From Candidatus Peregrinibacteria bacterium (GTDB lineage: Bacteria; Patescibacteriota; Gracilibacteria; UBA1369; LOWO2-01-FULL-3): a stretch of 46,109 nt of DNA. Every line of letters starts with the position of its first letter. Positions within the stretch are counted from its first letter, which is position 1. Made by a program: the position numbers and the translations under genes. This document shows positions 3,597 to 23,354 of this stretch, in pieces. The notes beneath the pieces were generated by a model that ran no database searches, was not told where the DNA came from, and was given only the letters and a program-made list of their open reading frames with translations. The stretch lies in contig WJKE01000055.1 of NCBI GenBank assembly GCA_014729275.1, forward strand, positions 1 to 46,109. Reading direction: 5' to 3'.

Positions 3597-5735
3597 TTAG
3601 CGTACCAATTTTGAAACAGAATTTTTAACTTTTTCCTTCATCAAAACAAATCTGGAATAATTTGAATAAATATATCCCGCGATAACAGAAAAGATTAATA
3701 ACAAGGTTACTCCTGGACCGGATTCACTTTTATCTTCATCCATTTCCATAAGTTCTTCACTACCGGCAATACCGGCTTCAACCTCCGGAGGAGTAGTCTC
3801 AACTACCGGAGGAGCAGGAATACCTTTTACAACATTACTAAGCTCCTTGCCCTGAAAACCAAGCTCATCTACTGCAATAACAGCAAAATAGTATTCATCA
3901 CCATTTACAAGATTAGGAATATACCAGGTTGTATCATTAGTGAAAGTGTCCACAACATTATTTAAACTCTCCGGGTCCAGACCGAAATAAATTCTATAGT
4001 TGGAAATAGGGTTTTCATGAATAACGGGTTCAGCCCAGTTTAAAATTATTTTTTCATCATCAGGAGTAGCAGTTAGGTTTGCTACCGCCCCAATTTCAGG
4101 TTCAACAACTTGTTTTTCAATCACATTAATCGTTGCCTCAGATGAAAAACGAGATTCATTCCCCAACTCATCCAATAAAATAAAATCAAAACTATATTCA
4201 CCCGGTTCGGAAGGGGCTGAAAAAGTAGCCTTATAAAAACCATCAGAGTCGCGAGTTAAGTCATAAATACTATCATTAAATATCATTGCAGCCTGAGAAA
4301 GATCATCGGGGATAGTTAAAGTAATTGTTATTTCTTCACCAGATTCAATATCTCCTTCCGGCTCAAAACTAATCTCGGTAATTTCCGGAGCCGATGTATC
4401 AATGATAAAATTTACAATATCACTTTCATCAATAATTGTTCCTTCGCTATCTTCTATTGTTAAATACAAGGCATGTTCACCATCTACCAAAGCTGGCGAG
4501 GTATAAAGAAATTCACCATCGCCATCCACAACAACCGTATCCAGCTTAACTTCATTGTCGTAAATATTTAATTCTGAAGAAGCAGGAGCAAGGCCACTAA
4601 TTACAACAATATTATTACTGTAAGTACCAGAAACCGGATTTTCAATTTCAATTTCAGATTCCCTACTTGAACCTTCCGGAAACAAATCCTCCACTGTAAA
4701 GGTATATTCACCAAATATGGAGGGGTCATCCAGATCACGAGCCTCAATTTGATACTCGCCAGGTTGTAGGAAGGACAAAGTTAAGCTAAAAGTATGAGAA
4801 CCCAAATCTGATTCATTAAACTCATAATCCTCAGGCAGAGTAACATAAGATTCATTATCGGAAAGGACGGAAAATCTAACGGTTCCAAGATAATCATTAA
4901 CAACCGCTTCGTCATCATCCACAGCAGTTAAAGTAAAATTAATAATTTCACCTGTCCCAATCTCCTCAGGTATATCCTCAAATTTTAAACCGCTTGCTAT
5001 GCCCGAAGGCGCTCCGGAAGCGGCATATTCAAAATCCAAGTTCGAGCCGTCATAAAAACCTATTTTAGCCCTATCAGAAATAATTGTATCCGCACTAACA
5101 TCATAAGCAGTATAAGTAACAGGACCCTTAACATCTGATCTAACCCGAAAAACTATTAAGCCTTCTGCATTTGTGATATTTGAAGAATAATATTCAATAT
5201 CGCTCTCATTATCACTCGAAAGAAGCTTAACCATATGTCCTTTAATAGGATTGGCATAGTCATCGACCAATTTTACTGATATCAAAGCAGTATCCTTGCC
5301 AACATGAACCATTTGATTTGCAGGATATAACTTAGAAACCGAAGTAGAAACGCTCGAAGGAAATACTTCAAAACTTGAAAAACCTGAAAAATCGTCCATG
5401 GAATTTAACTTGGCTCTTACATAATAATCTCCTGCTTTTCTTGTATGATAGTCGGAAATTTGACCATAAGCCACGCCATTGGCATTAGACATACCATCAA
5501 ACTTAATAATTTTACCATCAGGTTTTTTCAGCTCAAAATCAATTGCTGAATTGGGAGTGGTTTTAGATGTCTGAATTCTGGTTGAAACACCCGCAACAGT
5601 ATCAAGTGCATATACTTCAAGAGGTGAAGCAGCAAAAGTGGTTTGACAAAAACCTAAAATTAATATCACAACAATACAAAGCGATAATATACTTTTTGTT
5701 TTATTTTTCAGATGTTTCATAGTTTTAGTTATCAT
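3597..5735 (-). CDS. Large secreted/cell-surface protein with Ig-like (Big_1-type) and FN3-like repeats and a C-terminal membrane anchor
   Basis: 712 aa. Signal peptide (...ILGFCQTTFA). Invasin-like Ig repeat (ALISVKLVDDYANPIKGHMVKL...VTYTAYD) and further beta-rich repeats. FN3-like module (NLTATPDDEKIILNWAEP...EYYFAVIAVDELG). Acidic linker, then SGPG + hydrophobic helix (VTLLLIFSVIAGYIY) + basic tail. Confidence 0.6.
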   Translation of the reverse strand: MITKTMKHLKNKTKSILSLCIVVILILGFCQTTFAASPLEVYALDTVAGVSTRIQTSKTTPNSAIDFELKKPDGKIIKFDGMSNANGVAYGQISDYHTRKAGDYYVRAKLNSMDDFSGFSSFEVFPSSVSTSVSKLYPANQMVHVGKDTALISVKLVDDYANPIKGHMVKLLSSDNESDIEYYSSNITNAEGLIVFRVRSDVKGPVTYTAYDVSADTIISDRAKIGFYDGSNLDFEYAASGAPSGIASGLKFEDIPEEIGTGEIINFTLTAVDDDEAVVNDYLGTVRFSVLSDNESYVTLPEDYEFNESDLGSHTFSLTLSFLQPGEYQIEARDLDDPSIFGEYTFTVEDLFPEGSSRESEIEIENPVSGTYSNNIVVISGLAPASSELNIYDNEVKLDTVVVDGDGEFLYTSPALVDGEHALYLTIEDSEGTIIDESDIVNFIIDTSAPEITEISFEPEGDIESGEEITITLTIPDDLSQAAMIFNDSIYDLTRDSDGFYKATFSAPSEPGEYSFDFILLDELGNESRFSSEATINVIEKQVVEPEIGAVANLTATPDDEKIILNWAEPVIHENPISNYRIYFGLDPESLNNVVDTFTNDTTWYIPNLVNGDEYYFAVIAVDELGFQGKELSNVVKGIPAPPVVETTPPEVEAGIAGSEELMEMDEDKSESGPGVTLLLIFSVIAGYIYSNYSRFVLMKEKVKNSVSKLVR

Positions 5736-5783: not shown

Positions 5784-5811
5784 TTGACCAAGCAAGTCAA
5801 TCTATTATAAT
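5784..5811 (+). promoter_or_regulatory. Sigma70-like promoter upstream of the PKD-7TM / ATP-grasp cassette
   Basis: TTGACC (5784-5789), 16-nt spacer, TATAAT (5806-5811), 41 nt upstream of the ATG at 5853. Confidence 0.5.
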
Positions 5812-5852: not shown

Positions 5853-7433
5853 ATGAAAAATATATTTAAAAAAATATTTACTGTATTTTATTTACTGCTG
5901 GTTATAATGCCTGGTTTAGCTTTTGCACAAGAACTAAGGGAAGAGGCACAAAGCAATGAAGGCGAGCAAAACCCCGTATATTTGCAAGCAGTAATTAGTA
6001 TCGACGAAGCTGTGGAAGTTCAAAAAAGCTCAATTTTCGATGCATCAGATTCATTTATCCCAAACGCAGAACAGGAAATTAATTTTTATTGGGATTTTGG
6101 AGATGGAAACAAAAACGAAGGCACTGAAGCAATGGAGGTTCTACACGCTTATAAGGAGCCCGGCAGGTACACAGTAAGCCTTACAGTAGACGACGGAATT
6201 AACACTTCAACAGAAACACTAGAAATTTTTGCATACAGAAAGCTTATATTCCTAATGAGTGACCAAACCGAAGCCCAGGAAAGAATCAACGTTATTAAAG
6301 ATTACGCTGAGGAACAAGGGGTATTTATAAAAATAATCGATAGTTTTGGTTCTAGTACAGAGTTTATTTCCGAGGAGATTCTTACAAAAAAGTTAAACGA
6401 GGAATCAAATATATTTCAAAAATCAGGACAAATAGTCATCTGGACAAAAGAAAACGCAGGACTAAATTCACTTTCAAGGTATTTACAGGCAAATCAGGCG
6501 GAAAAAAACAACTTATCTCAGCAAACAATTACCGTACTGGAAAACAACGTTAATGCAATAATTTCAAGAATACAGAACCAATTTCAGCTAATAAAACCAA
6601 AATCAGTAATAGTTGCAAAAGAAGCCGCTATCTACCCATTAATAGAAAGTCAAAACGACAAAGAATTTATATACAGCCTTGAAACCGGGGGATATGAGTA
6701 TGAAATAATCACAGAAGAAACAGGAAAATTACGCCCCTGGAATTTCATGTCTTATTTAGTGAACTTTCTTATAAATACGGGAATTCCCGATAACACCATA
6801 GCCTTATTACTTTTATTACCTGTTATTGCGACGGTCATCGCATTCATGAAACAATTCGTTGGACTAACAACCTTTGGAATCTACACACCATCAATCATGA
6901 CGTTATCCTTCCTTGTAATCGGTCTGCCGGCAGGACTCTTGACGCTTTTCGCAGCAATTATCGCAGGAGCAATCGCCAGGCCAATATTGAAAAAAATCCG
7001 AATGCTCTACATTCCAAAAATGGCATTAGTAATAACATTTGTATCATTGGTTCTTTTCCTTATTTTAATTTTCTCCGTTTACCTGCAACTTTTCGACTCA
7101 GCATTCTTATCAATCGCTATTTTCCCAATGCTGATTCTAAGCACACTTGTCGAAAAATTGATTAGCGTTAAGAGTGAAAAAGGTCTATCCTCAGCAATCG
7201 TGCTCATGGGAGAAACAGTATTGGTTGCAATAATTGCTTACTTTTTAGCGGGAGGAGAAATAAATTTTGGATTCACAACTATCCAATTAAGTCTAATAAA
7301 ACGCATAATCATAACCTATCCTGAGATAATTCTATTACTGTTCATTGCAAATATTATCCTTGGTAAATGGAGTGGATTAAGATTATTGGAAAGATTAAGA
7401 TTCAGAGAAATTCTAAGACATATAGAAGAATAA
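5853..7433 (+). CDS. Secreted PKD-domain protein fused to a C-terminal 7TM module of the type usually fused to inactive transglutaminases
   Basis: 526 aa. Signal peptide MKNIFKKIFTVFYLLLVIMPGLAFA. PKD signature (YWDFGDGN...HAYKEPGRYTVSLTVDDG). Unassigned middle region of ~170 aa. The C-terminal multi-pass block (LLLLPVIATVIAFMKQFVGLTTFGIYTPS...) ends GKWSGLRLLERLRFREI, which I recognise as the 7TM_transglut-type ending. Confidence 0.6.
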   Translation: MKNIFKKIFTVFYLLLVIMPGLAFAQELREEAQSNEGEQNPVYLQAVISIDEAVEVQKSSIFDASDSFIPNAEQEINFYWDFGDGNKNEGTEAMEVLHAYKEPGRYTVSLTVDDGINTSTETLEIFAYRKLIFLMSDQTEAQERINVIKDYAEEQGVFIKIIDSFGSSTEFISEEILTKKLNEESNIFQKSGQIVIWTKENAGLNSLSRYLQANQAEKNNLSQQTITVLENNVNAIISRIQNQFQLIKPKSVIVAKEAAIYPLIESQNDKEFIYSLETGGYEYEIITEETGKLRPWNFMSYLVNFLINTGIPDNTIALLLLLPVIATVIAFMKQFVGLTTFGIYTPSIMTLSFLVIGLPAGLLTLFAAIIAGAIARPILKKIRMLYIPKMALVITFVSLVLFLILIFSVYLQLFDSAFLSIAIFPMLILSTLVEKLISVKSEKGLSSAIVLMGETVLVAIIAYFLAGGEINFGFTTIQLSLIKRIIITYPEIILLLFIANIILGKWSGLRLLERLRFREILRHIEE

Positions 7434-7434
7434 A

Positions 7435-9828
7435 ATGTTAAAAAAAATATTCGGACATCACGGTATTTTAGGCATTAATGCAAGAAATTTGCTTTATTTA
7501 AGGCCATACAATCCCAAAAAAGCTATAAAACTTGCAGACGATAAAATTAAAACCAAACAATTCCTGGCAGCAAGAGAAATTCCTGTACCAAAATTATTTA
7601 ATATAATCAAAAATCCCGAAGAACTGGAAAAATTTAATTTCGAATCTTTACCAAATTCCTTTGTACTCAAACCAAATAACGGATACGGAGGAGAGGGAAT
7701 AATTCCAATAGTCGATAAAAAGGACGGATACTTTATTACTTCAAGCGGCAAGAAGTTGAATAAATATGACCTAAAAGAGCACATTAACGATATTTTGGAT
7801 GGACGTTTTTCAATATCAAATGTTGGAGATATAGCGTTTTTTGAACAGTTAGTTGTTGCTGATGAAAGAATTGGAAAATTTTCCTATAAAGGGCTTCCAG
7901 ATATCAGAGTTGTGGTTCACAATTTAATTCCGGTAATGGCCATGCTTAGGCTTCCCACAAAGGAGTCTGATGGAAAAGCAAATCTGCACCTCGGAGCGGT
8001 AGGTGTAGGAATAGACATTTCAAATGGTAAAGCCACACATATAACCTACAAAAACAGGATAATAGATGAATTGCCCGACAATAAAGGAAAAATTAAAGGC
8101 GAAAAAATTCCCTATTGGGATGAAATTTTAACCATTGCATCTAAAGCGCAATTAATTACAAACCTGGGATATCTTGCAGCTGATATTTGTATAGATAAAA
8201 ATACAGGGCCTGTAGTGCTGGAGTTAAATGCAAGAGCTGGGCTGGGCGTACAAATTGCAAATCTCGCCCCATTAAGAAAAAGATTGGAAAGGATTGAGGG
8301 AGTAAAAGTTACAAAGCCCGTAAAAGGTGTAAGAATTGCCAAAGATATGTTTGGCAACGTTGTTGAAAAAGAAATAAAAGAAATATCCGGAAAAGAAGTT
8401 ATAACCGCAGATGAAAAAGTAGAACTGATAAATAAAAAAGGAACAATCCAGGTTAAAACAAAAATAGACACCGGAAGAGAAAGATCCGTAATAGACGAAG
8501 AGTTTGCAAGTAAAAACAATCTTTTAGAAGATGAAAATTACGACGATGAGCAAGCCACAGTTAAAATAAAATTTAATATAAAAGGAAGACGTAAACAAAC
8601 AATTGCAGATTTGGAAAAATTTTCGAATAAAGATTACAAGATAATACTGGGCCGCAGGGATTTAAAAGATTTCCTCATCGATACCTCGATACAGGAAAAA
8701 AATGATATCAAAATTAAGAAAAAGAAAAAAAATTCAGTAAAAACCGGAACACCCACAAACTTCTACAAAATTGATAATATGCTCAGCAATGTAGATAATA
8801 AAATCAAGCTCCTTTACCATTTAAGGCCACTAAATCTTGAGTCCGAGAAAAAGAAATTTTTCAAAAACAAAAATTACAATCCTAATTTGGAATATCCGGC
8901 ATTAAAATTTAACCCCATGGATTTAATCGATGCACTAAATAAAATTAAGCCGGATGACTCACCATTAGGGATAATTTACAATGAAAAGAAAAAAGAAATA
9001 TTAAACAAGATAAAACTTCTTGAAAGCATTAATGAGGAAGACTTTACTAAATATTCAATAAAACTTTTTGGTGAGCCAAGCGAAAAAGATGTAAGTAACT
9101 GTATAGACTTCATAAAAACCATTGATTTTAAGAATATTAAAAAACATAAAAAATTATATAACTCAAATGATGCTCTAAAGGCATTTAACAAGGTTTTTGA
9201 TAAGTATGATCTACCCAATTGGAAGGTCAAAATTAAAGAAAATATGGTTGCAAATTGTGTCGCCGGTAAAAACAATAGGCTATTTGTTAGAGAAGGAGCA
9301 GAATTTGATAGAGATAGAATTGAAGCATTAATAGTTCACGAAATAGAAACGCACATTCTAACTGCCGAGAATGGAAAAATGCAACCATATGAAATCTTTA
9401 AGCGAGGTACAGCAAATTACTTAAAAACACAGGAAGGACTGGCAATGTATAACGTAGAAAAACAAAGACATGAACCATTTTTTAAAAACTATAAAGCCTT
9501 AGGACATGTAGTGGCAATAAGCACCAGTTTAAAAGGATCATTTTCTGATGCATATAAAGCATTAAGAGAATTGGGAATTCCAAAAGAGCAGGCATTTAGA
9601 TCGGCATTAAAGTCTAAAAGGGGATACTACGACACCTCGCAGCCGGGTGCATTTACCAAAGATTTTATTTATTACAAAGGCTACATGGAAATTAAAAAAT
9701 ATTTTGATGAAGGAGGGGATATAAAAATGCTTTACATAGGAAAAATCAGCATAGATGACATAGAGATCATAAAAAAAATCCGGGAATTAAAAGAACCTTT
9801 CATTCTTCCTGAGTGGATTAAAAAATAA
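7435..9828 (+). CDS. Tri-domain protein: RimK/alpha-L-glutamate-ligase-like ATP-grasp + retropepsin-like (RimB/'ATP-dependent Zn protease' family) peptidase + DUF1704/MATCAP-like QEGLA-motif metallopeptidase
   Basis: 797 aa, starting 1 nt after the upstream stop. The N-terminus GILGINARNLLYLRPYNPKKAIKLADDKIKTKQFL matches the ATP-grasp 'alpha-L-glutamate ligase-like' family start. The middle has KTKIDTGRERSVID (DTG at nt 8467-8475) and ILGRRDLKDFLID. The C-terminal part has HEIETH (nt 9337-9354) and QEGLA (nt 9430-9444). Confidence 0.65.
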   Translation: MLKKIFGHHGILGINARNLLYLRPYNPKKAIKLADDKIKTKQFLAAREIPVPKLFNIIKNPEELEKFNFESLPNSFVLKPNNGYGGEGIIPIVDKKDGYFITSSGKKLNKYDLKEHINDILDGRFSISNVGDIAFFEQLVVADERIGKFSYKGLPDIRVVVHNLIPVMAMLRLPTKESDGKANLHLGAVGVGIDISNGKATHITYKNRIIDELPDNKGKIKGEKIPYWDEILTIASKAQLITNLGYLAADICIDKNTGPVVLELNARAGLGVQIANLAPLRKRLERIEGVKVTKPVKGVRIAKDMFGNVVEKEIKEISGKEVITADEKVELINKKGTIQVKTKIDTGRERSVIDEEFASKNNLLEDENYDDEQATVKIKFNIKGRRKQTIADLEKFSNKDYKIILGRRDLKDFLIDTSIQEKNDIKIKKKKKNSVKTGTPTNFYKIDNMLSNVDNKIKLLYHLRPLNLESEKKKFFKNKNYNPNLEYPALKFNPMDLIDALNKIKPDDSPLGIIYNEKKKEILNKIKLLESINEEDFTKYSIKLFGEPSEKDVSNCIDFIKTIDFKNIKKHKKLYNSNDALKAFNKVFDKYDLPNWKVKIKENMVANCVAGKNNRLFVREGAEFDRDRIEALIVHEIETHILTAENGKMQPYEIFKRGTANYLKTQEGLAMYNVEKQRHEPFFKNYKALGHVVAISTSLKGSFSDAYKALRELGIPKEQAFRSALKSKRGYYDTSQPGAFTKDFIYYKGYMEIKKYFDEGGDIKMLYIGKISIDDIEIIKKIRELKEPFILPEWIKK

Positions 9829-10828
9829 ACATAGAATCCCCAAAACTAAAAAATCTATAGTTATTTGTTTTTGCTATTTCATATAACTCCATAATTTTGG
9901 AGATGGGATCTTTTACGCCCTTATGTTCTAAAAAAGAAGCAACAAGCATGATAAGTGTACTTTTAGGAAGATGAAAGTTAGTGATTAAAGAATCAACAGC
10001 CTTCCACTTATACGAACCCGGATAAATAAAAATATCAGTAGTTGACTTTTCCCCCCTAAACCTGTTAAATTTTTTATAATTCGACTCAAGCACCCTTACA
10101 GAAGTTGTGCCAACAGCTACAATTTTCTTGCCATCCTGCATAAAAGAATTCAGATTACCTGCAGTAGATTCCGAAATTTCGTATTCCTCCTCATGCATAG
10201 AGTGTTCACTAATATCTGAAGTTTTAACAGGTAAAAAAGTACCTCTCCCAACATGCAATGTAACTAATTCAGAATTAACTCCTTTATTATGTAAAGACTT
10301 AAGTAAGTCCTTTGTGAAATGTAGACCGGCTGTAGGCGCAGCTACAGATCCTTCCTCATTTGCATACACAGTTTGATAGCGGGAAAGATCAACATTCTCA
10401 TTTTTAATATATGGAGGTAGGGGAATTTTGGCCAAAGTTCTAGCTTCTACGCCAGAAAATTTAATTACACGCGTTCCATCTTCAAGAACATCTTCAACAT
10501 GGCATTCAACATCATTAACAGAAAAGGTTTTACCTTTTTTAAAAAATCGACCTGGCCTAACCATACAAACGTAAGTAAATTCATCAATTCTCTTTAATAA
10601 AAAGATTTCCTTATTTTCAAACAAAATTCTGGCTGGAACAACCTTAGACTGATTCATTACAAGAACGTGTTCAGGCCCTAAAAAACTTACAATATCTGAA
10701 AATGACTTGTGAGAAACCAGATTATTGAGAGTATCGTAAATAAGCAGTTTAGATTCATCCCGTCTTTGTGAAGGACACTGAGCTATAAATTTTTCATCAA
10801 GCTCAAAATCGAAATCACTTAGTTTCAT
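9818..10828 (-). CDS. queA: S-adenosylmethionine:tRNA ribosyltransferase-isomerase
   Basis: 336 aa. Canonical QueA start (MKLSDFDFELDEKFIAQCPSQRRDESKLL), plus VAAPTAGLHFT and VGTTSVRVLES motifs. Confidence 0.92.
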   Translation of the reverse strand: MKLSDFDFELDEKFIAQCPSQRRDESKLLIYDTLNNLVSHKSFSDIVSFLGPEHVLVMNQSKVVPARILFENKEIFLLKRIDEFTYVCMVRPGRFFKKGKTFSVNDVECHVEDVLEDGTRVIKFSGVEARTLAKIPLPPYIKNENVDLSRYQTVYANEEGSVAAPTAGLHFTKDLLKSLHNKGVNSELVTLHVGRGTFLPVKTSDISEHSMHEEEYEISESTAGNLNSFMQDGKKIVAVGTTSVRVLESNYKKFNRFRGEKSTTDIFIYPGSYKWKAVDSLITNFHLPKSTLIMLVASFLEHKGVKDPISKIMELYEIAKTNNYRFFSFGDSMFIF

Positions 10829-10831
10829 AAA

Positions 10832-11965
10832 TTACCATTTAGTCTCTATCTTTTGAGTTTCAGAACCTTTATACTCCTTATCCTTTTCCAATACAATCAA
10901 AGTCATATCATCATCCTGTTTATGATCCTGCATAAAAGTTGAAACATCCTTCGCTACATGGTAATTAAGACCTTCAGCGGAATATTGTGAAGCATGTTCC
11001 TTAATAGCTTCCTCTAGACGTTTTAAACCAAATAGCTCACCATTATTATTCCTGGCCTCTGTAATTCCATCTGTGTAAAGAATTACAAAATCGCCATCAT
11101 TCAATTCAATTTCCTTTTCAGTAATAAGCTTAGAGTTATCCGGAACCATACCAAGTGCGATACCACCTGATAAAATTTCACTACATTCACCCGTTAAATT
11201 ACGATAAACAAGTATATGTTCATGTCCAGCCCCTACATAAGTGAGACTTTGCTCTTTATGATCCCAACAAAGCATAACCATGGTCATGAACATTGCTTTT
11301 TTAACATGGGTTTTAATATGCTTATTAACATTTATAAGAACATCATAAGGATTATCATACATTTCGGCAAAAACCGATACCAATGAATTAACCATAGTCA
11401 TTATTAAACCGGCTGCCACTCCATGACCTGTAACATCTCCGACATAAATATAAGTTTTATCATCAGACGTAATAATATTAAAACTATCTCCACCAACTTC
11501 GGAAGCAGGACGATTTTTTGCAACAATTTGCATACCTGGTAGGGTGGGGGATACTAATGGCAAAATATCTCTTTGTAGATCATGAGCAATGGTTAATTCC
11601 TCAAGCATTCGCTCTCTATCCTTAATATCTGCACTTGCCTTTCCGAGACCGGCAATAACCTGATTAAAAAAATGTGCTAAAGTACCAATTTCATCTATTC
11701 TTGTTGTAAAAATTTTAGAATAACGACGTCCCGCTAAAAGTGCATCAACCTGTTTAAGAATAATCCGAATGGGACTCACAATATCAATCCAATAAAAAAA
11801 TATGAATAATAAAGATAATCCCCCCAAAGAAGCAACAAAATAAACTAAAGGAATGGCTTCAATATTGAAATATCTTAATCCGAAAAAAAGCGCCCCAATT
11901 ACCAAAGACAATATAATAAGGTTAAATATAAGTTTGGAAATTAAGTTTTTACGGATAAAAACCAT
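10832..11965 (-). CDS. Membrane-anchored HAMP-domain PP2C/SpoIIE-family serine phosphatase (RsbU/RsbP-like)
   Basis: 377 aa. Two N-terminal TM helices and a HAMP-like linker (IRIILKQVDALLAGRRYSKIFTTRIDEIGTLAHFFNQV). PP2C/SpoIIE motifs GGDSFNI, GDVTGHGVAAGLIM, LYTDGITEA and DDMTLIVL. Confidence 0.82.
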   Translation of the reverse strand: MVFIRKNLISKLIFNLIILSLVIGALFFGLRYFNIEAIPLVYFVASLGGLSLLFIFFYWIDIVSPIRIILKQVDALLAGRRYSKIFTTRIDEIGTLAHFFNQVIAGLGKASADIKDRERMLEELTIAHDLQRDILPLVSPTLPGMQIVAKNRPASEVGGDSFNIITSDDKTYIYVGDVTGHGVAAGLIMTMVNSLVSVFAEMYDNPYDVLINVNKHIKTHVKKAMFMTMVMLCWDHKEQSLTYVGAGHEHILVYRNLTGECSEILSGGIALGMVPDNSKLITEKEIELNDGDFVILYTDGITEARNNNGELFGLKRLEEAIKEHASQYSAEGLNYHVAKDVSTFMQDHKQDDDMTLIVLEKDKEYKGSETQKIETKW

Positions 11966-11966
11966 A

Positions 11967-12320
11967 TTAACTGTTTAGGAAATCATTAAGATCAGAATAT
12001 ATTTTTATAACTTCCTTAATTCCAATTGCAGAAAAAATGTCCTGAATATTGGGCTTCAGACCAACAATAACAAGTTCGCGCCCTCTTTGAGTTAGATGAG
12101 TGTGAATCTCAATTAAATATCCAATGGCTTCACTATTAATAAAGTTCAATCCGGAGAAATCAAATACAAGCGATTTGCCGGAAAAAGCCTGGATTACGCC
12201 ATCAAGTTTTTCCCTAATATCATTATGACCGGCTTTGTCGAAATCACCACTAAAGGATATTAGTTGATAATTTTTTTCAGAATCTAATTCTGAAATTTTT
12301 AAATCTAAATTTGATTCCAT
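11967..12320 (-). CDS. STAS-domain anti-sigma-factor antagonist (SpoIIAA/RsbV-like)
   Basis: 117 aa. VFDFSGLNFINSEAIGYLI carries the conserved phosphorylatable Ser context. The C-terminal part (VGLKPNIQDIFSAIGI) is typical of STAS. Confidence 0.8.
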   Translation of the reverse strand: MESNLDLKISELDSEKNYQLISFSGDFDKAGHNDIREKLDGVIQAFSGKSLVFDFSGLNFINSEAIGYLIEIHTHLTQRGRELVIVGLKPNIQDIFSAIGIKEVIKIYSDLNDFLNS

Positions 12321-12330
12321 AGTATATTGA

Positions 12331-14697
12331 TTAATGAATAATATATTTATTTATGTTTTCAATTTCATCATACTCCTCAGCCAAACAATAAAGCCATTTA
12401 AGAGTTTTCAAATTTGCTTGATCGAGTGTACTGAGTTTATTACCCTCATTTTTAATAAAAGTATCCACTCTATCAGAAACAATTTGCTTAACAATTTTAT
12501 CAATATTTTTAAAAACGCGCACGTCAACATTTCTAAGTCGCTCTTTTATATCTTTGGATATATCTTTTGAGCTTGAAAATATTAAATCAACAAGAACAGG
12601 TAAAGAATCATAATAACCCATTTTTGCAAGGGCCAAAGATGCCTGGATTTTTTCCTCCAAATTTTGTGAATACAAATAAGATAGACAAAGCTTACGTTTA
12701 TTTTTTAAATTCAGCTCGCCAATAGCATATAAAGCTAAAGAAACCTTTCTTGCATCTTTCGTAGCTAAAAACTCATTAATTTTCTTGATCGCTAATTTTA
12801 AATAAGATTTTACCCGACCAATTGAAATTGCCGTATTAATTTCCAATAGGTCATCTCCTGATTTTAAATAAGGCAAAATTAGCTTAGAAAGTGTTTCATC
12901 CCTATAATTTCCCAATGTATAAATAATTTCCGGCTTTAAATCTTCAGCCTTATCGTCCAGTAGATGAACCAGATAGTCAACAGTGCTTGTATAGCTCAAC
13001 ATACTTAAAGCATTAATAATTTTAACGCGTATTCTATGATTTTCCTCGTGCGTATACATTTCTTTAAGTTGCTCTATAATTTGTATTCTAAGATAAAGAT
13101 GCTTTTGAAGATAACGGGAAATATTTTTAAACTCTATTATGGCATTTACCGCAGCCTCACGTAATGCGGATTTTTCACTTTTTAAAAGCTCCAAAACCGT
13201 AGGTAAAGACTTGTAATAATTCAGCTCTAAAAGAGCCTTAATAATTTTAATTCTAATTGAAACTGACTCCTCTTCATTAGCCAAAACCTTCATTAAAACC
13301 TTAGCCGAAGTTCTGTGCCCTTTTTGAGCAAGTATATCAATAGCGTTAAATCGAATTTTTTTACACTTCTCATTAAATAAATCATTTATAGCCGCTTTCG
13401 AATAATTTCTTTGTTGAAGATAAGTAATTGCTCCAAGAGCGCAAATAACACAAATCATTGATAGATTTAGCGCAAAAACCAAAGACTCACCGAAAAAAAT
13501 CGCCTGAAGCGAGAAAAGAATCGCAGTACCTAAAATTGCTCCAACAGGTCTAACAATTCCCTCAAGTAATTCTCTGGTATGCTCTCGCAAATTCTCTTTA
13601 ACCGCATAATAGGCAGAGTGGTAGGCATTATTTTGAAGCACAGATGTAATTGTGTAATTATTCTTTGCCAAAACAGCAGAGCTAAATCCAAAATTTACTG
13701 TTAAGCCAAAAATACTCAACAAAGTTACAAGCGGATGAACCAGCATTGAACCAATAACACCCAAAGAATTAATTAATCTGCCTCCAACAAAAAATTGGAC
13801 AACAAGCGCGGTGGAACTGAATATTATAAATAAGGCACCCAGATCATGCACAAATGAATGTTCAAATCCACTACCCGCATCTAAAACAACATCGGAAACA
13901 TTATTATAAACAGCCTTTGTATATTGAAATTCCAAAAGATTAAAAAGTATCCATTGGAAAAGTACAATTAAAAATAATCCCTTTAAAAAATCCCTATGCC
14001 TATCCCTGGCAAATTCAATTTTTAGCTTATCGATAAGATTAATTGCACTCCTTTTTACCTCACGTTTTACAAGAACCGATATTTTCGAAAAATAATTCTC
14101 ATAAAAAAGAAGAGCGGGAATCTGGAGTAAAATTAATCCTATCCAAATATATGTAAACTTATAAACCTCCAGGCTGGATGAAAAAAGAACAACCAAAAGA
14201 CCTGCTAAAATTCCTCCCATTGTCAGAGAGGATTCAATAAGCGGAAAAGTCCTTTCACTCTGTAATGGAGTAAACATTTTTTCAGTGAAACTATCAATAA
14301 GAAGCTTTAATTGAGTTAAAAAAACAGCCTCCGCAACAATTAATAACAAGAAAAAGGCATTTTTATTAAAATCATAAATATACACCGAAAGAAGCAAAGG
14401 AATACATGCCAAAATTACAGTGTAAATCATTAACTTCTTTGTCTGAATCCTGTCTAAAATGGATGAATAAAGAATAGTACCTAAAATAGTAAAAAATCCA
14501 TTAAGTATAAAAAGAAAAGGCAATTTCGAAATACCATATTTACTAACAAATAAGGCAACAATCACCGTCCAACCCGTAACAAATGCAGCTCTGTAAAGAA
14601 ATTTTATCGACCAGGATGCCAATATTTTTGGCCATTCACCCGGATGAACATTAAATATTCTATTTACAACCGATAATAAGGAAAAATTATATAACAT
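12331..14697 (-). CDS. Multi-pass transporter (MFS / ATP:ADP-translocase-like fold) fused to C-terminal HEAT repeats
   Basis: 788 aa. About 12 hydrophobic helices over the first ~430 aa. The N-terminus (VHPGEWPKILASWSIKFLY) resembles TLC/MFS-HEAT fusion proteins. The C-terminal ~350 aa consist of repeated helical HEAT-like units (SIRIKIIKALLEL..., ALREAAVNAIIEF..., RIRVKIINALSML...). Confidence 0.6.
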   Translation of the reverse strand: MLYNFSLLSVVNRIFNVHPGEWPKILASWSIKFLYRAAFVTGWTVIVALFVSKYGISKLPFLFILNGFFTILGTILYSSILDRIQTKKLMIYTVILACIPLLLSVYIYDFNKNAFFLLLIVAEAVFLTQLKLLIDSFTEKMFTPLQSERTFPLIESSLTMGGILAGLLVVLFSSSLEVYKFTYIWIGLILLQIPALLFYENYFSKISVLVKREVKRSAINLIDKLKIEFARDRHRDFLKGLFLIVLFQWILFNLLEFQYTKAVYNNVSDVVLDAGSGFEHSFVHDLGALFIIFSSTALVVQFFVGGRLINSLGVIGSMLVHPLVTLLSIFGLTVNFGFSSAVLAKNNYTITSVLQNNAYHSAYYAVKENLREHTRELLEGIVRPVGAILGTAILFSLQAIFFGESLVFALNLSMICVICALGAITYLQQRNYSKAAINDLFNEKCKKIRFNAIDILAQKGHRTSAKVLMKVLANEEESVSIRIKIIKALLELNYYKSLPTVLELLKSEKSALREAAVNAIIEFKNISRYLQKHLYLRIQIIEQLKEMYTHEENHRIRVKIINALSMLSYTSTVDYLVHLLDDKAEDLKPEIIYTLGNYRDETLSKLILPYLKSGDDLLEINTAISIGRVKSYLKLAIKKINEFLATKDARKVSLALYAIGELNLKNKRKLCLSYLYSQNLEEKIQASLALAKMGYYDSLPVLVDLIFSSSKDISKDIKERLRNVDVRVFKNIDKIVKQIVSDRVDTFIKNEGNKLSTLDQANLKTLKWLYCLAEEYDEIENINKYIIH

Positions 14698-21682: not shown

Positions 21683-22219
21683 ATGGAAAGTAATCCGAAT
21701 CCAAAAAGTACAAAAATTACAATAACTTTACCAACAAATGCGTATTTTATGTCAGGTATTCGCGATTTTACTCTAAATATGATCAAAAATACTACAAATT
21801 TCCCGGAAAAATGGGCTTTCCGTTTTCAATCAGTAGTGGATGAACTATGTAATAATGCAATTGAGTTTGGATCAGCCCCAGGGTCGGATATAAGAATTAC
21901 TTTTCATCATGAAAAAGATGATTTTCTGGAGATAACCGTTGAAGATACCGGAACCGGAAAAAATCGGATTAAGGCGAAAGATATGATTAAACTTTATGAA
22001 GAAAGGAAAAAACCAGATTATACATTTTCCGGTATTAGAGGCAGGGGACTGATAAAAATTGTAAGTGAATGGACCGATGAGTTAAAATTTGAAGACAGGG
22101 CGGAAGGTGGATTGAAGATCAGTGCCAAAAAATTCCTAAAAGAAGCCAGACAAAATGAAGAAAGTATTAGTTTTCAGGGACGGGAAGCGGTTAGTCAGGT
22201 TCAAAATCCAAATACATAA
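21683..22219 (+). CDS. Anti-sigma regulatory factor-type serine kinase (RsbW/SpoIIAB-like, HATPase_c fold)
   Basis: 178 aa. N-box ELCNNAIEFG, G1 box VEDTGTG, G2 box GRGLIKIV. Confidence 0.75.
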   Translation: MESNPNPKSTKITITLPTNAYFMSGIRDFTLNMIKNTTNFPEKWAFRFQSVVDELCNNAIEFGSAPGSDIRITFHHEKDDFLEITVEDTGTGKNRIKAKDMIKLYEERKKPDYTFSGIRGRGLIKIVSEWTDELKFEDRAEGGLKISAKKFLKEARQNEESISFQGREAVSQVQNPNT

Positions 22220-22245
22220 ATAAATTAACAATTAAATAAAATAAT

Positions 22246-23331
22246 ATGACAGAAGCAAATATCGTAATTGAGGACGCAGCAAGTGCAGTCCAGGGAAAGA
22301 CCCTAAAAGTTGTAAAAATTAGCGGTCAACTTGACGAAAGCAATGTTGATGAACAAATACAAATGGTTTACAAAATGCTGGAAGAAAATCCAAAGGGAAT
22401 AGACGTTGTATTTGACCTGACTAATTTAGAATATCTAAACAGTAAATCAATCGGATATTTAACTGATATCTACGGCAAAATAACAGAAAATGGAGGCAAA
22501 ACAGCCATTGCAAATGCTAAACCAAATATTGCGGATATATTGCAAGTTGTTGGGCTAACACAGCTAATTCCACTTCATGATAGCGTACAGGCTGCCGTAT
22601 CAGCATTAGGTAGTGATACAGCAGCGACTACTCAAGCTGAACAAGCCCAAGAGGCAGCAGCTACGGAGCAAACTCCTGCTACTCCCCAAGCACCCGCGCA
22701 ACCGGTACAGCCTAAAGCACCCCCGGCAGAAGCCAAGGAAAAGGCTCCTGTTCAAACTGATGCTCCGAAAGCCGCACCAGCTGTAGAAAGTCCACAAGCT
22801 GAAGCTCAGCCGGAATCTCAAACAAAAGTGGCTCCGAAAACAGTACCTGCTGAACAAGAATCTGCAAAGCAAGCACCGGCTACACCGGAAGCGCAAGGTA
22901 CACAGGTAGCACCTACTAATGCGAAAACTCCTGCTGAAACGGCGCAAACAACGGCGACACCTGCGGGAACACCTGAAGCAGTACAGGCTGAACCACCAGA
23001 GAGACCTGCCTCACCTACAGATACAACACAACAAGCGACTCCTCAAACAGAAGCAGCACCAACACAGCCGGAAACACCCGCTTCAACCACAGAAGCACCG
23101 CCACAACCTGAAGCACCGTCACAACCTGAAGCACAGACGCCCCCTCAAACAGAAGCAGCACCAACAAAACAAGTTACTGCAGAACCTGCACCCGCGGATC
23201 AAACAGAGGCAAAACCGGAAGAAACACAAGCAAAACCGAAAACACAGACACCAGCTAATCAATCAACATCAGATAGTGTCTCGCAAGTCGATAATCCAAC
23301 TGAAGGAGGAAACTACAAATTCGAAAATTAA
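22246..23331 (+). CDS. STAS-domain anti-sigma-factor antagonist with a long Pro/Ala/Gln/Thr/Glu-rich disordered C-terminal tail
   Basis: 361 aa. The first ~120 aa are STAS (VFDLTNLEYLNSKSIGYLTDIYG, with the conserved Ser; ANAKPNIADILQVVGL). The remaining ~240 aa are low-complexity PAQTE-rich sequence. Confidence 0.8.
   Translation: MTEANIVIEDAASAVQGKTLKVVKISGQLDESNVDEQIQMVYKMLEENPKGIDVVFDLTNLEYLNSKSIGYLTDIYGKITENGGKTAIANAKPNIADILQVVGLTQLIPLHDSVQAAVSALGSDTAATTQAEQAQEAAATEQTPATPQAPAQPVQPKAPPAEAKEKAPVQTDAPKAAPAVESPQAEAQPESQTKVAPKTVPAEQESAKQAPATPEAQGTQVAPTNAKTPAETAQTTATPAGTPEAVQAEPPERPASPTDTTQQATPQTEAAPTQPETPASTTEAPPQPEAPSQPEAQTPPQTEAAPTKQVTAEPAPADQTEAKPEETQAKPKTQTPANQSTSDSVSQVDNPTEGGNYKFEN
22609..23290 (+). 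repeat. G+C-enriched low-complexity coding region with internal imperfect repeats (PAQTE-rich tail)
   Basis: Exact 24-nt repeat CCTCAAACAGAAGCAGCACCAACA at 23041-23064 and 23143-23166. Adjacent 18-nt units sharing ACAACCTGAAGCAC at 23101-23136 (PQPEAP/SQPEAQ). Composition is visibly richer in C/G/A than the flanking DNA. Spurious ORFs appear in other frames. Confidence 0.85.
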
Positions 23332-23354
23332 TTTAAATAAATGAGCTCAAACAA

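What the first reader, a model, noticed from the sequence alone, without database searches (positions are those of the whole stretch)
7435..9828. Ligase and carboxypeptidase fused in one polypeptide: a possible bacterial 'writer-eraser' analogous to the TTL / MATCAP pair
Seen in sequence: a single 797-aa ORF carries an N-terminal ATP-grasp ligase and a C-terminal DUF1704-type HExxH + QEGLA peptidase. A DTG aspartyl-peptidase-like module lies between them.

Established knowledge (recollection): tubulin tyrosine ligase and the TTLL glutamylases are ATP-grasp enzymes. The eukaryotic tubulin detyrosinase MATCAP defines the family formerly called DUF1704. Bacterial members are annotated only as 'flavohemoglobin expression-modulating QEGLA motif protein'.

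Inference: fusing the two opposing chemistries suggests a reversible C-terminal amino-acid addition/removal cycle, or a processing step that matures the ligase product. That would be an evolutionary precedent for the eukaryotic cycle. I cannot tell from sequence alone whether both peptidase sites are catalytically competent.
Basis: partly seen in the sequence, partly recalled or inferred. Interest (0 to 1): 0.7.

Follow-up and report, generated by a model that had tools for sequence, protein, structure and literature searches.

The report
Peptide ligase fused to MATCAP-type peptidase
A conserved Peregrinibacteria protein joins a RimK-like amino-acid ligase, a decayed retropepsin-like domain and a MATCAP-type carboxypeptidase; it is encoded right after a membrane protein whose cytoplasmic tail almost always ends in Glu-Glu, which suggests an add-and-trim cycle on that tail.

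Summary
ORF 7435..9828 encodes a 797-aa protein with three domains:
- an RloC/RimK-like ATP-grasp (aa 17-288);
- a retropepsin-like barrel of the RimB/RloA family (aa ~320-417);
- a MATCAP/DUF1704 metallocarboxypeptidase (aa ~443-797).

The fusion is not an artefact. More than 120 protein clusters and about 70 genome loci from Peregrinibacteria and related Patescibacteria carry the same single ORF.

The ligase and MATCAP catalytic residues are essentially invariant. The "DTG" of the middle domain is degenerate across the fused clade. It is nearly invariant (81/83) in relatives that lack MATCAP. The middle domain is therefore probably a dead protease.

The ligase is not TTL-like. The locus is a variant of the Rlo system (RloB 7TM protein plus RloC ligase plus RloA retropepsin). 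Its closest functional precedent is RimK/RimB.

New here: the translationally coupled upstream PKD-7TM protein ends in -EE, -EEE or -EEEE in 64 of 65 MATCAP-fused loci, against 1 of 74 MATCAP-less loci. This is not corrected for phylogeny.

My best reading is that the ligase extends this cytoplasmic tail with glutamates and the MATCAP domain trims them. That mechanism is inferred, not shown.

Verdict: a new variant of a known kind, moderately to highly interesting.

The parts
5784..5811 (+). Best sigma-70-like promoter match (TTGACC-16-TATAAT) upstream of the two-gene unit
   Evidence: It matches 11 of 12 consensus positions. Promoter-like sites are not enriched over shuffles in this region, so this is only a candidate.
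5853..7433 (+). Membrane partner, 526 aa: signal peptide, PKD domain, an unassigned ectodomain, and a C-terminal 7TM_transglut (RloB-type) domain
   Evidence: Pfam PKD_4 aa 46-122 and 7TM_transglut aa 314-520. NCBIfam RloB matches only the 7TM part. The same gene sits directly upstream of the fusion in nearly all related loci.
7374..7430 (+). Conserved Arg-rich C-terminal tail GLRLLERLRFREILRHIEE-COOH of the 7TM protein; candidate substrate or docking site
   Evidence: The tail ends in EE, EEE or EEEE in 64/65 MATCAP-fused loci and in 1/74 MATCAP-less loci. The stop TAA at 7431-7433 lies one base before the ATG of the fusion.
7435..9828 (+). Three-domain enzyme ORF (797 aa plus stop)
7483..8298 (+). 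RloC/RimK-like ATP-grasp ligase domain (aa 17-288)
   Evidence: PF14397 E 2.4e-68. TIGR02291 scores 290.8 bits. Foldseek best ATP-grasp hits are RimK 5zct, ArgX and LysX. K79, D156, R158, N183, D250, E263 and N265 are conserved in 155-156 of 156 relatives.
8392..8685 (+). Retropepsin-like (RimB/RloA, PF05618-related) beta-barrel, aa ~320-417; probably catalytically inactive
   Evidence: Fold matches to Ddi1 RVP, RloA and RloA2. Relatives hit PF05618 above cut-off. E 7e-27 against a profile built from DTG-intact relatives.
8467..8475 (+). D345-T346-G347 motif (DTGR)
   Evidence: Variable among close orthologues: DTG 21, DTS 10, DTT 4, NTx 3 and others, of 42. Only 8 DTG plus 6 DSG among the MATCAP-fused ORFs aligned, against 81/83 DTG in MATCAP-less relatives.
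8686..8748 (+). Lys-rich, low-confidence linker (aa 418-438)
   Evidence: pLDDT below 50. Length and sequence vary in the ortholog alignment.
8761..9825 (+). MATCAP/DUF1704-type metallocarboxypeptidase domain (aa ~443-797)
   Evidence: PF08014 E 3e-57. PDB 7z5g: phmmer E 2e-13, profile E 4.7e-19. Foldseek TMt 0.70.
9337..9354 (+). HEIETH (HExxxH) metal-binding and catalytic motif, aa 635-640
   Evidence: Aligns with HEIGTH of MATCAP. 7z6s carries the catalytic E-to-Q mutant at this position. H, E and H are invariant in 85/85 relatives.
9430..9444 (+). QEGLA motif, aa 666-670; E667 is the candidate third metal ligand
   Evidence: Aligns with EEGLA of MATCAP. The motif is [QE]EG[LM]A, with the second E invariant in 85/85. 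The EEG motif is the third-ligand site in TMCP1 (PMC10499314).

Best explanation
This is a two-gene, membrane-associated module of Peregrinibacteria derived from the Rlo system.

Gene 1 encodes a signal-peptide/PKD/7TM protein. Its conserved, Arg-rich cytoplasmic tail ends in -EE(E)(E).

Gene 2 is translationally coupled to gene 1 and encodes a cytoplasmic three-domain enzyme. I propose these roles:
- The RloC/RimK-like ATP-grasp domain adds L-glutamate, ATP-dependently, to an acidic C-terminus. The most likely target is the -EE tail of the 7TM partner.
- The MATCAP-type metallocarboxypeptidase domain removes these residues one at a time.
- The middle retropepsin-like domain has lost its catalytic role. 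It probably serves as a scaffold, dimerisation module or acidic-tail-binding module.

Shown:
- the architecture, its conservation and its gene linkage;
- the integrity of two catalytic centres and the decay of the third;
- the covariation of the -EE tail with the MATCAP fusion.

Inferred:
- Glu as the amino acid added;
- the 7TM tail as the substrate;
- the physiological output, by analogy to Rlo: envelope or osmotic homeostasis.

My sub-probabilities:
- opposed ligase and carboxypeptidase acting on one acidic C-terminal peptide: about 0.6;
- that peptide being the 7TM tail: about 0.4.
For: 1. Domains and folds are established.

2. Both active sites are under purifying selection. MATCAP H-E-x-x-x-H and the E of (Q/E)EGLA are invariant in 85/85. 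ATP-grasp K79, D156, R158, N183, D250, E263 and N265 are conserved in 155-156 of 156.

3. The fusion and its position directly after the 7TM gene are conserved in about 70 genome loci. The stop and start codons are one base apart.

4. 7TM tails end in EE, EEE or EEEE in 64/65 MATCAP-fused loci, against 1/74 MATCAP-less loci. Mean net charge of the last six residues is -1.6 against +1.6.

5. The retropepsin DTG is intact in 81/83 MATCAP-less enzymes and decayed in the fused clade. This fits MATCAP having taken over the peptidase role.

6. A Halobacterium plasmid encodes the 7TM domain fused N-terminally to the ATP-grasp in one ORF. The 7TM C-terminus is therefore cytoplasmic and next to the ligase.

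7. RimK adds Glu to the C-terminus of RpsF and RimB removes them. RloA cleaves RimB substrates in vitro and has a positively charged channel. rloB and rloC deletions suppress loss of rloA (PMC12239564).

8. MATCAP/TMCP enzymes shorten alpha-linked poly-Glu chains at C-termini (PMC10499314).

9. MATCAP-family genes are also linked to ATP-grasp ligases in Proteobacteria: the FGase-MATCAP-GshB-like operon, and the adjacent QEGLA and 'GshB' genes co-induced at low salinity (PMC10308900).
Against: - There are no biochemical data for any member of the fused family.
- The tail/MATCAP covariation is dominated by one clade. It may therefore reflect a single evolutionary event, and the Fisher p of 1e-37 is not phylogenetically corrected.
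- Classical RloB tails (Legionella ..KARS, Aeromonas ..GKDK) and the MATCAP-less CPR tails are basic. The ancestral RloC ligase therefore cannot be modifying the 7TM C-terminus, and the tail-substrate idea requires a change of target.
- Exceptions exist. L071 has MATCAP as a separate adjacent gene and a tail ending ..KTRK. L164 has no MATCAP and a tail ending ..EDEEE. L077 ends ..IVE.
- The code-25 relative L091 has the fusion but no adjacent 7TM gene.
- Amino-acid specificity of the ligase is not established by sequence.
- The inter-domain arrangement in the AF2 model is uncertain (pTM 0.51).
Confidence: 0.5

Rival explanations
1. Metabolite or polymer pathway rather than protein-tail editing. 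The ATP-grasp would synthesise a free oligo- or poly-glutamate-like peptide, or amidate a cell-envelope precursor. The 7TM protein would export or sense that product. The MATCAP domain would mature it or turn it over. The -EE tail of the 7TM protein would be only a docking site, a primer mimic or an autoinhibitory pseudo-substrate for the MATCAP domain.
For: - RimK also makes free poly-alpha-glutamate (PMC12239564).
- In Rlo systems the protease is periplasmic while the ligase is cytoplasmic, which implies an exported product.
- 7TM tails are basic in all MATCAP-less systems, so the ancestral ligase target is not the tail.
- Relatives replace MATCAP with other C-terminal domains: YdjC (annotated in Pfam only as 'YdjC-like protein') or a second ATP-grasp. 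This reads more like small-molecule or polymer chemistry.
- Pfam names the ligase family 'sugar-transfer associated'.
Against: This reading does not by itself explain why the very last residues of the 7TM protein are fixed as EE over more than 60 divergent orthologues and only where MATCAP is fused. MATCAP-family enzymes characterised so far act on protein C-termini.
Confidence: 0.3
2. A soluble protein is the target, as with RimK. The enzyme would glutamylate and deglutamylate ribosomal protein S6 or another cytoplasmic protein with an acidic C-terminus. The 7TM protein would merely regulate or localise it.
For: RimK is the best structural match of the ligase domain. The RimK/RimB pair sets the precedent of a ligase and a peptidase acting on RpsF.
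Against: - The ligase belongs to the RloC-like branch (TIGR02291, 290.8 bits), not the RimK family (TIGR00768, 62 bits against a cut-off of 143).
- The ligase is invariably linked to the 7TM gene and never to ribosomal genes.
Confidence: 0.1
3. Direct ancestor of the eukaryotic TTL/MATCAP tubulin cycle. On this view the fused bacterial writer-eraser is the evolutionary source of the tubulin tyrosination/detyrosination pair.
For: The C-terminal domain is truly homologous to MATCAP and shares its catalytic motifs and the KRG..DT segment. The published evolutionary survey of TMCPs covered only eukaryotes, so a bacterial origin is unexplored.
Against: - The ligase is not TTL-like: no TTL Pfam hit, and RimK, LysX and ArgX are the nearest structures.
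- Identity to MATCAP is only about 20%.
- Proteobacterial standalone QEGLA proteins score far higher against the Pfam MATCAP model (310-432 bits against 195). They are thus at least as good candidates for the source.
- The fusion is confined to one CPR lineage among the loci retrieved.
Confidence: 0.07
4. Artefact: two or three separate genes were joined by misassembly or a frameshift.
For: A few loci do show split ORFs: L049 and L054 look like frameshifts or sequencing errors, and L071 has a true separate MATCAP gene.
Against: The same uninterrupted ORF of about 795-805 aa is found in at least 120 protein clusters from independent projects. It is also found in about 70 genome loci, including complete chromosomes.
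Confidence: 0.01

Closest known systems
RloABC operon of Pseudomonas aeruginosa, also found in Legionella, Aeromonas and Vibrio (PMC12239564)
   Same: - A 7TM_transglut membrane protein is encoded immediately upstream of an RloC-type ATP-grasp: 43.5% identity to Legionella RloC and 290.8 bits to TIGR02291.
- A RimB/RloA-family retropepsin domain belongs to the same system.
   Different: - The retropepsin here is fused to the cytoplasmic ligase instead of being a secreted protein, and its DTG motif is decayed.
- The 7TM protein carries a PKD-containing ectodomain instead of the inactive transglutaminase.
- A MATCAP domain is added.
- The 7TM tail ends in -EE, whereas RloB tails are basic.
RimK / RimB / RpsF (ribosomal protein S6 glutamylation)
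   Same: - An ATP-grasp alpha-L-glutamate ligase is opposed by a dedicated peptidase acting on a protein C-terminus. By my recollection that C-terminus ends in Glu-Glu.
- RimK is the closest solved structure to the ligase domain.
- The retropepsin domain is homologous to RimB.
   Different: - This ligase is not a RimK-family member: TIGR00768 scores 62 bits against a cut-off of 143.
- The active peptidase here is a metallocarboxypeptidase, not the aspartic protease.
- All activities sit on one chain.
- The candidate substrate is a membrane protein tail, not S6.
Eukaryotic tubulin tail cycle: TTL/TTLL ligases against MATCAP/TMCP1-2 (and CCPs)
   Same: - The C-terminal domain is homologous to MATCAP and shares HExxxH, (E/Q)EGLA and KRG..DT.
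- MATCAP/TMCPs trim Tyr, Glu and poly-Glu from acidic C-terminal tails.
- ATP-grasp ligases are the opposing writers.
   Different: - The ligase belongs to a different ATP-grasp family, with no TTL domain.
- Writer and eraser are fused here.
- There is no tubulin.
- Identity to MATCAP is only about 20%.
[quoted passage not shown]
   Same: - The same peptidase family is again genomically linked to an ATP-grasp ligase: Mesorhizobium FGase / QEGLA / GshB-like operon, and Photobacterium RS17020/RS17025.
   Different: - A different ATP-grasp family (GshB-like) is involved, with an FGase-like amidohydrolase partner (fused in Vibrio). No 7TM protein and no retropepsin domain are present.
- The window protein is below the TIGR02421 cut-off: 198 against 339 bits.

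Membership tests
MATCAP / DUF1704 (Pfam PF08014) | Sequence match above the Pfam gathering score | tested here: met
   194.7 bits against a cut-off of 27, aa 474-786.
MATCAP / DUF1704 (Pfam PF08014) | HExxxH metal/catalytic motif plus the Glu of the (E/Q)EG motif as third ligand | tested here: met
   HEIETH aligns with HEIGTH, and QEGLA with EEGLA, of 7z5g. These residues are invariant in 85/85 relatives. Motif roles are taken from PMC10499314.
MATCAP / DUF1704 (Pfam PF08014) | MATCAP fold | tested here: met
   Foldseek against 7z5g: E 5e-12, TM (target-normalised) 0.70, on a model region with pLDDT about 90.
MATCAP / DUF1704 (Pfam PF08014) | Metallocarboxypeptidase activity on C-terminal residues | not testable with these tools
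   Requires an enzyme assay.
QEGLA protein equivalog (NCBIfam TIGR02421) | Score above the curated cut-off | tested here: not met
   198.4 bits against a cut-off of 338.65. It is a related branch, not the same equivalog.
RloC / alpha-L-glutamate ligase-like protein (NCBIfam TIGR02291) | Score above the curated cut-off | tested here: not met
   290.8 bits against a cut-off of 314.2, covering model positions 7-315 of 317. This is a near miss. Identity to Legionella RloC is 43.5%.
RloC / alpha-L-glutamate ligase-like protein (NCBIfam TIGR02291) | Encoded directly downstream of a 7TM_transglut (RloB-type) gene | tested here: met
   Window. Legionella and Aeromonas rloABC. About 140 CPR loci.
ATP-grasp superfamily | Conserved nucleotide- and Mg-binding residues: Lys before the Gly-rich loop, DxR, and the D...ExN triad (residue roles from established knowledge of ATP-grasp enzymes) | tested here: met
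   K79, G-rich loop 83-88, E137, D156, R158, N183, D250, E263 and N265 are present and conserved in 146-156 of 156 relatives. The fold matches RimK, LysX and ArgX.
RimK family (NCBIfam TIGR00768) | Score above the curated cut-off | tested here: not met
   62.1 bits against a cut-off of 143.4, a partial match over aa 20-113.
TTL / TTLL family | Match to the TTL domain | tested here: not met
   No TTL family appears among the Pfam hits at E <= 0.01. The nearest structures are RimK, ArgX, LysX, Ddl and PsnB.
RimB/RloA retropepsin-like peptidases (Pfam PF05618) | Sequence match above the gathering score | tested here: inconclusive
   The window domain itself gives only Asp_protease_2 at E 0.11. 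Relatives P0173, P0186, P0189, P0182 and P0178 score 29-38 bits against a cut-off of 27. The window domain hits a profile of those relatives at E 7e-27. The fold matches RloA and RloA2.
RimB/RloA retropepsin-like peptidases (Pfam PF05618) | Invariant catalytic D-T/S-G-A signature under selection | tested here: not met
   The window has DTGR. Among fused orthologues only 8 DTG plus 6 DSG were counted, the rest being NPL, NPV, DPT, DTS and others. MATCAP-less relatives show DTG in 81/83.
RloB (NCBIfam NF052267, inactive transglutaminase fused to 7TM) | Inactive transglutaminase ectodomain plus 7TM domain | tested here: not met
   Only the 7TM part matches: 64.7 bits against a cut-off of 900, aa 313-522. 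The ectodomain is PKD plus an unassigned region.

The most novel reading that the evidence does not exclude
This would be a bacterial 'C-terminal tail code': one polypeptide acts as writer (RloC-like glutamate ligase), eraser (MATCAP-type deglutamylase) and possibly reader (the dead retropepsin domain) on the cytoplasmic -EE tail of its 7TM membrane partner. It would be the first reversible polyglutamylation of a bacterial membrane protein. It would also indicate that the ancestral job of the MATCAP family was to oppose RimK-like ligases, long before tubulin.
Probability: 0.3. Interest if true: 0.85.

Novelty: new variant of a known kind. Interest (0 to 1): 0.66.

Why it matters
Three open points become directly testable.

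1. **Rlo substrate.** The substrate and product of the RloB/RloC system are unknown, although the system matters for osmotic tolerance, antibiotic resistance and biofilms in Pseudomonas (PMC12239564). The Peregrinibacteria variant offers a concrete candidate: an acidic 7TM C-terminal tail. It also offers an enzyme that can be assayed on a short peptide.

2. **Bacterial MATCAP function.** Bacterial MATCAP/DUF1704 proteins still carry an uninformative name. Their repeated linkage to ATP-grasp ligases, by fusion here and in operons in Proteobacteria, argues that they are the peptidase halves of ligase/peptidase pairs.

3. **Peptidase replacement.** The system gives a natural case of one peptidase replacing another. 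The retropepsin domain decays where MATCAP is fused.

If tail glutamylation is confirmed, it would extend tubulin-like C-terminal tail editing to bacterial membrane proteins.

Tried and rejected
- **Artefact hypothesis.** Rejected.
- **TTL-type ligase.** Rejected: no TTL hit in Pfam.
- **Active second peptidase.** Judged unlikely from the motif census.
- **Sequence search of the middle domain against PDB.** Neither the single sequence nor the profile gave anything useful. Only structure prediction plus Foldseek, and Pfam hits in relatives, resolved it.
- **Iyer et al. 2009 (PMC3268129).** This paper probably first described ATP-grasp/7TM/peptidase neighbourhoods. It is not held, so I could not check what it predicted.
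- **Literature searches.** These term combinations found no paper containing them all: 'DUF1704 + ATP-grasp', 'MATCAP + ATP-grasp', 'Peregrinibacteria + ATP-grasp'.
- **The listing of cluster members.** It gave no names or taxa for distant architectures.
- **Proteobacterial 7TM tails as a test of a universal acidic tail.** The test was negative: the tails are basic. A general 'RloB tail is the RloC substrate' model is therefore rejected. The tail hypothesis is restricted to the MATCAP-fused clade.
- **Second retropepsin, MATCAP, ligase or 7TM gene elsewhere in the window.** None found.
- **L164, the one MATCAP-less locus with an acidic tail.** No carboxypeptidase gene is nearby.
- **tRNA and Rfam scans of the window.** Nothing relevant.


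Full report
**1. Observation**

The window contains an ATG-initiated ORF at 7435..9828 (+) of 797 aa, exactly as reported.

- Pfam places ATPgrasp_ST (PF14397) at aa 17-288 (E 2.4e-68) and MATCAP (PF08014, formerly DUF1704) at aa 474-786 (E 3e-57).
- NCBIfam gives 'alpha-L-glutamate ligase-like protein' TIGR02291 (290.8 bits, cut-off 314.2) and 'QEGLA motif protein' TIGR02421 (198.4 bits, cut-off 338.65).
- The metal motif is HEIETH, which is HExxxH as in MATCAP, not HExxH.

An AF2 model built on 42 orthologues (mean pLDDT 80) shows three folded units: aa ~25-278, ~320-417 and ~443-797. They are joined by low-confidence linkers.

**2. Is the fusion real?**

Yes, on three lines of evidence.

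- A search of 5.8 billion proteins returned at least 120 clusters at 59-67% identity. All are ~790-810 aa with the same two Pfam domains. They come from NCBI, JGI, ENA and Logan assemblies and are labelled Candidatus Peregrinibacteria or Gracilibacteria.
- A full HMMER scan of 1.84 billion cluster representatives found 3,792 relatives. End-to-end fusions persist down to ~30% identity.
- A scan of GTDB species genomes gave 582 relatives. The best 80 are essentially all Peregrinibacteria, Peribacteria, Gracilibacteria or Patescibacteria MAGs, including complete chromosomes. The two labelled Nitrospirota and Woesebacteria are short contigs and probably mis-binned.

Stop-to-stop ORF analysis shows a single ORF with ligase, middle and MATCAP domains in nearly every locus with enough sequence. 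Three loci are split (L049, L054, L071).

**3. The three domains**

*MATCAP domain*
- phmmer E 2e-13 and profile E 4.7e-19 against human MATCAP (7z5g, 7z6s).
- HEIETH aligns with HEIGTH. The 7z6s entry carries the catalytic E-to-Q mutant at this position. QEGLA aligns with EEGLA, and KSKRGYYDTS with RAKRGQTDTS.
- Foldseek TM 0.70.
- H, E, H and the Glu of (Q/E)EG(L/M)A are invariant in 85/85 relatives.

*Ligase domain*
- The best structural neighbours are RimK (5zct, 5zk6, 4iwx, 7qys), ArgX and LysX.
- The canonical ATP-grasp residues are conserved in 146-156 of 156 relatives: K79, the Gly-rich loop, E137, D156/R158, N183, D250, E263/N265. Their functional roles come from established knowledge of the superfamily.
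- There is no TTL hit.

*Middle domain*
- Sequence searches alone were weak.
- Its own AF2 model (pLDDT 84) matches the retroviral-protease-like domains of Ddi1 and the recently solved RloA (9g58), RloA2 (9g59) and Lpg0085 (2pma), at E ~1e-4 and TM 0.56-0.62.
- The equivalent domain of relatives P0173, P0186, P0189, P0182 and P0178 exceeds the PF05618 (RimB/RloA family) threshold.
- The window domain hits a profile of DTG-intact relatives at E 7e-27.

**4. Is the middle domain an active protease?**

Probably not.

- Among 42 close orthologues the motif reads DTG 21, DTS 10, DTT 4, DTN 2, NTx 3, DTA 1, DIQ 1.
- Among the fused ORFs aligned from genome loci, only 8 are DTG and 6 are DSG. The rest are NPL, NPV, DPT, DPH and others.
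- Relatives that have the ATP-grasp and retropepsin domains but no MATCAP domain keep DTG in 81 of 83 cases, typically as DTGA..SS.
- The second retropepsin signature (I/L)(I/L)GxRDL is retained in both groups, so the fold is kept.

The window copy (DTGR) has the triplet but sits in a clade where that triplet is not under selection.

**5. Genomic context**

- The upstream ORF 5853..7433 (+) encodes a 526-aa protein with a signal peptide, a PKD domain, an unassigned region and a 7TM_transglut domain. Only this last part matches RloB.
- Its TAA stop (7431-7433) is one base from the ATG of the fusion.
- The gene pair is syntenic in relatives.

The pairing of a 7TM_transglut protein with this ATP-grasp family defines the rloABC operon (RloA secreted retropepsin, RloB inactive transglutaminase plus 7TM, RloC cytoplasmic ATP-grasp). 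In P. aeruginosa, loss of the RloA proteases causes hypo-osmotic sensitivity, antibiotic sensitivity, and biofilm and shape defects. Deleting rloB or rloC fully suppresses the hypo-osmotic growth defect and partly suppresses the other defects (PMC12239564).

I recovered canonical rloABC in Legionella adelaidensis and Aeromonas caviae. The Legionella RloC is 43.5% identical to the window's ligase domain.

A Halobacterium plasmid encodes the 7TM domain fused N-terminally to the ligase in one 584-aa ORF. This puts the 7TM C-terminus in the cytoplasm, next to the ligase.

**6. The main new observation: the tail of the 7TM protein**

The window's 7TM protein ends ...GLRLLERLRFREILRHIEE-COOH. I compared loci in two groups.

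| Group | Loci with a complete 7TM gene | Tail ends in EE | Mean net charge, last six residues |
|---|---|---|---|
| MATCAP fused | 65 | 64 (EE 38, EEE 24, EEEE 2; the other ends ..IVE) | -1.6 |
| MATCAP-less | 74 | 1 | +1.6 |

The MATCAP-less group comprises 80 metagenome loci retrieved with ATP-grasp+retropepsin-only queries, plus Legionella, Aeromonas and others. In this group the commonest last residue is Lys (31 of 74).

The naive Fisher p is 1e-37. The fused loci form one clade, however, so the count of independent events is small. I treat this as strong conservation within a divergent clade plus a suggestive correlation.

Informative outliers:
- L093 (P0173: DTG intact, divergent MATCAP) has an acidic tail ..ENVDAD.
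- L071 has MATCAP as a separate adjacent gene, DTGA intact, and a basic tail ..KTRK.
- L164 has no MATCAP, DTGA intact, an acidic tail ..EDEEE, and no carboxypeptidase gene nearby.

**7. Mechanistic reading**

Three properties change together in this lineage:
- a MATCAP domain is fused;
- the catalytic motif of the retropepsin decays;
- the partner's cytoplasmic C-terminus becomes -EE(E)(E).

Relevant precedents:
- RimK adds Glu to the C-terminus of RpsF and RimB removes them. By my recollection RpsF ends in -EE.
- RloA cleaves RimB substrates in vitro and has a positively charged substrate channel.
- MATCAP/TMCP enzymes shorten alpha-linked poly-Glu at protein C-termini (PMC10499314).

The most economical model is that the ligase domain extends the 7TM tail with Glu and the MATCAP domain trims it. 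The dead retropepsin barrel would be retained as a scaffold, dimerisation element or acidic-peptide-binding element. I put ~0.6 on opposed ligase and carboxypeptidase chemistry acting on one acidic C-terminal peptide. I put ~0.4 on that peptide being the 7TM tail.

The main rival (~0.3) is that the ligase makes a free or exported oligo-Glu-like product, as is plausible for classical Rlo, and that the -EE tail only docks or regulates the MATCAP domain. Two facts support the rival:
- MATCAP-less systems have basic tails, so the ancestral ligase target cannot be the tail.
- Relatives swap MATCAP for a YdjC-like domain or a second ATP-grasp.

**8. MATCAP-family linkage to ligases elsewhere**

- In Mesorhizobium a QEGLA/MATCAP protein lies between an FGase-like amidohydrolase and a GshB-like ATP-grasp.
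- In a Vibrio the FGase and MATCAP domains are fused.
- A Pseudoalteromonas copy is standalone.
- In Photobacterium damselae the QEGLA gene (RS17025) and the adjacent 'GshB' gene (RS17020) are induced 27- and 38-fold at low salinity, alongside RimK at 52-fold (PMC10308900).

A ligase/MATCAP pairing is therefore recurrent in bacteria. It has a circumstantial link to hypo-osmotic conditions, which echoes the Rlo phenotype.

**9.

The architecture and the idea of opposing chemistries on one chain are supported. The TTL analogy is not. The ligase is RloC/RimK-like, and the bacterial RimK/RimB pair already provides an experimentally shown writer-eraser precedent. The 'second peptidase' is most likely inactive. 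The evolutionary-precedent claim for the tubulin cycle is untested. Proteobacterial standalone QEGLA proteins match the Pfam MATCAP model much better (310-432 bits) than this domain does (195 bits).

**10. Novelty and caveats**

Automated pipelines already label these proteins. JGI uses 'alpha-L-glutamate ligase-like protein/uncharacterized protein (TIGR02421 family)'. NCBI uses 'tyrosine/phenylalanine carboxypeptidase domain-containing protein'. The co-occurrence of the domains is therefore visible in databases.

I found no paper that discusses this fusion.

I classify the locus as a new variant of a known kind (Rlo / RimK-RimB type ligase-peptidase systems).

All functional statements are inferences from homology, conservation and context. 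The covariation test is not phylogenetically corrected. ORFs were called stop-to-stop. Only the best 80 loci per scan were examined.

Noticed in passing
L088 4164-5918 (Halobacterium sp. DL1 plasmid CP007061.1): An archaeal plasmid encodes a single 584-aa ORF in which the 7TM_transglut-type domain is fused N-terminally to the RloC-like ATP-grasp. The stretch carries no annotated gene in the record. It acts as a Rosetta-stone fusion for the 7TM-ligase interaction, and it occurs in Archaea.
   Followed up: partly
P0178, P0186, P0189, P0173; loci L092, L093: The ATP-grasp plus RimB-like core carries alternative C-terminal domains in other uncultured lineages: YdjC-like (P0178), a second ATP-grasp (P0186, whose locus holds two further RimK/GshB-like ligase genes and a DUF3541 gene), an unassigned ~400-aa region (P0189), and a divergent MATCAP with intact DTG (P0173).
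   Followed up: partly
L094-L173 (metagenome loci): A large family of minimal two-gene modules: a bare 7TM protein of ~216-250 aa with no ectodomain, followed by an ATP-grasp+retropepsin protein of ~430-480 aa with intact DTGA. In effect this is a cytoplasmic, fused RloC-RloA with RloB reduced to its membrane part. I found no description of it in the searched literature.
   Followed up: partly
L091 4965-7415: A ~30%-identical ligase-MATCAP fusion (P0244) is readable as one 817-aa ORF only with genetic code 25 (UGA = Gly). It therefore comes from a recoded lineage. No middle-domain match and no adjacent 7TM gene were detected there.
   Followed up: partly
L083 5113-7104 (Vibrio sp. HDW18) and L085 4214-7911 (Mesorhizobium sp. 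AR07): Proteobacterial QEGLA/MATCAP proteins are linked to an N-formylglutamate-amidohydrolase-like domain (fused in Vibrio, a separate gene in Mesorhizobium) and to a GshB-like ATP-grasp annotated 'glutathione synthetase'. That annotation is probably wrong in this context.
   Followed up: partly
window 3597-5735 (-): A 712-aa secreted or anchored protein with Big_1, Big_13 and fn3 repeats and a C-terminal TM segment is transcribed divergently from the 7TM gene. It keeps this position in relatives (L001, L002). This may be plain synteny or a functional link to the PKD-bearing 7TM protein.
   Followed up: no
window 9818-14697 (-): Downstream, on the opposite strand, lie QueA, a membrane SpoIIE-type PP2C phosphatase, a STAS anti-sigma-antagonist-like protein and a 788-aa MFS/HEAT-repeat membrane protein. 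All are syntenic in relatives. The queA ORF overlaps the end of the fusion ORF by 11 bases (9818-9828), convergently.
   Followed up: no
L164 874-2145: L164 is the only MATCAP-less locus with an acidic 7TM tail (..EDEEE). It has a glutamate dehydrogenase gene two genes upstream of the 7TM gene. This may be coincidence.
   Followed up: no
window 22001-24000: A local rise in GC to 0.40 against ~0.32 for the rest of the window. No rRNA or other Rfam family is present there. The coding content was not examined.
   Followed up: no
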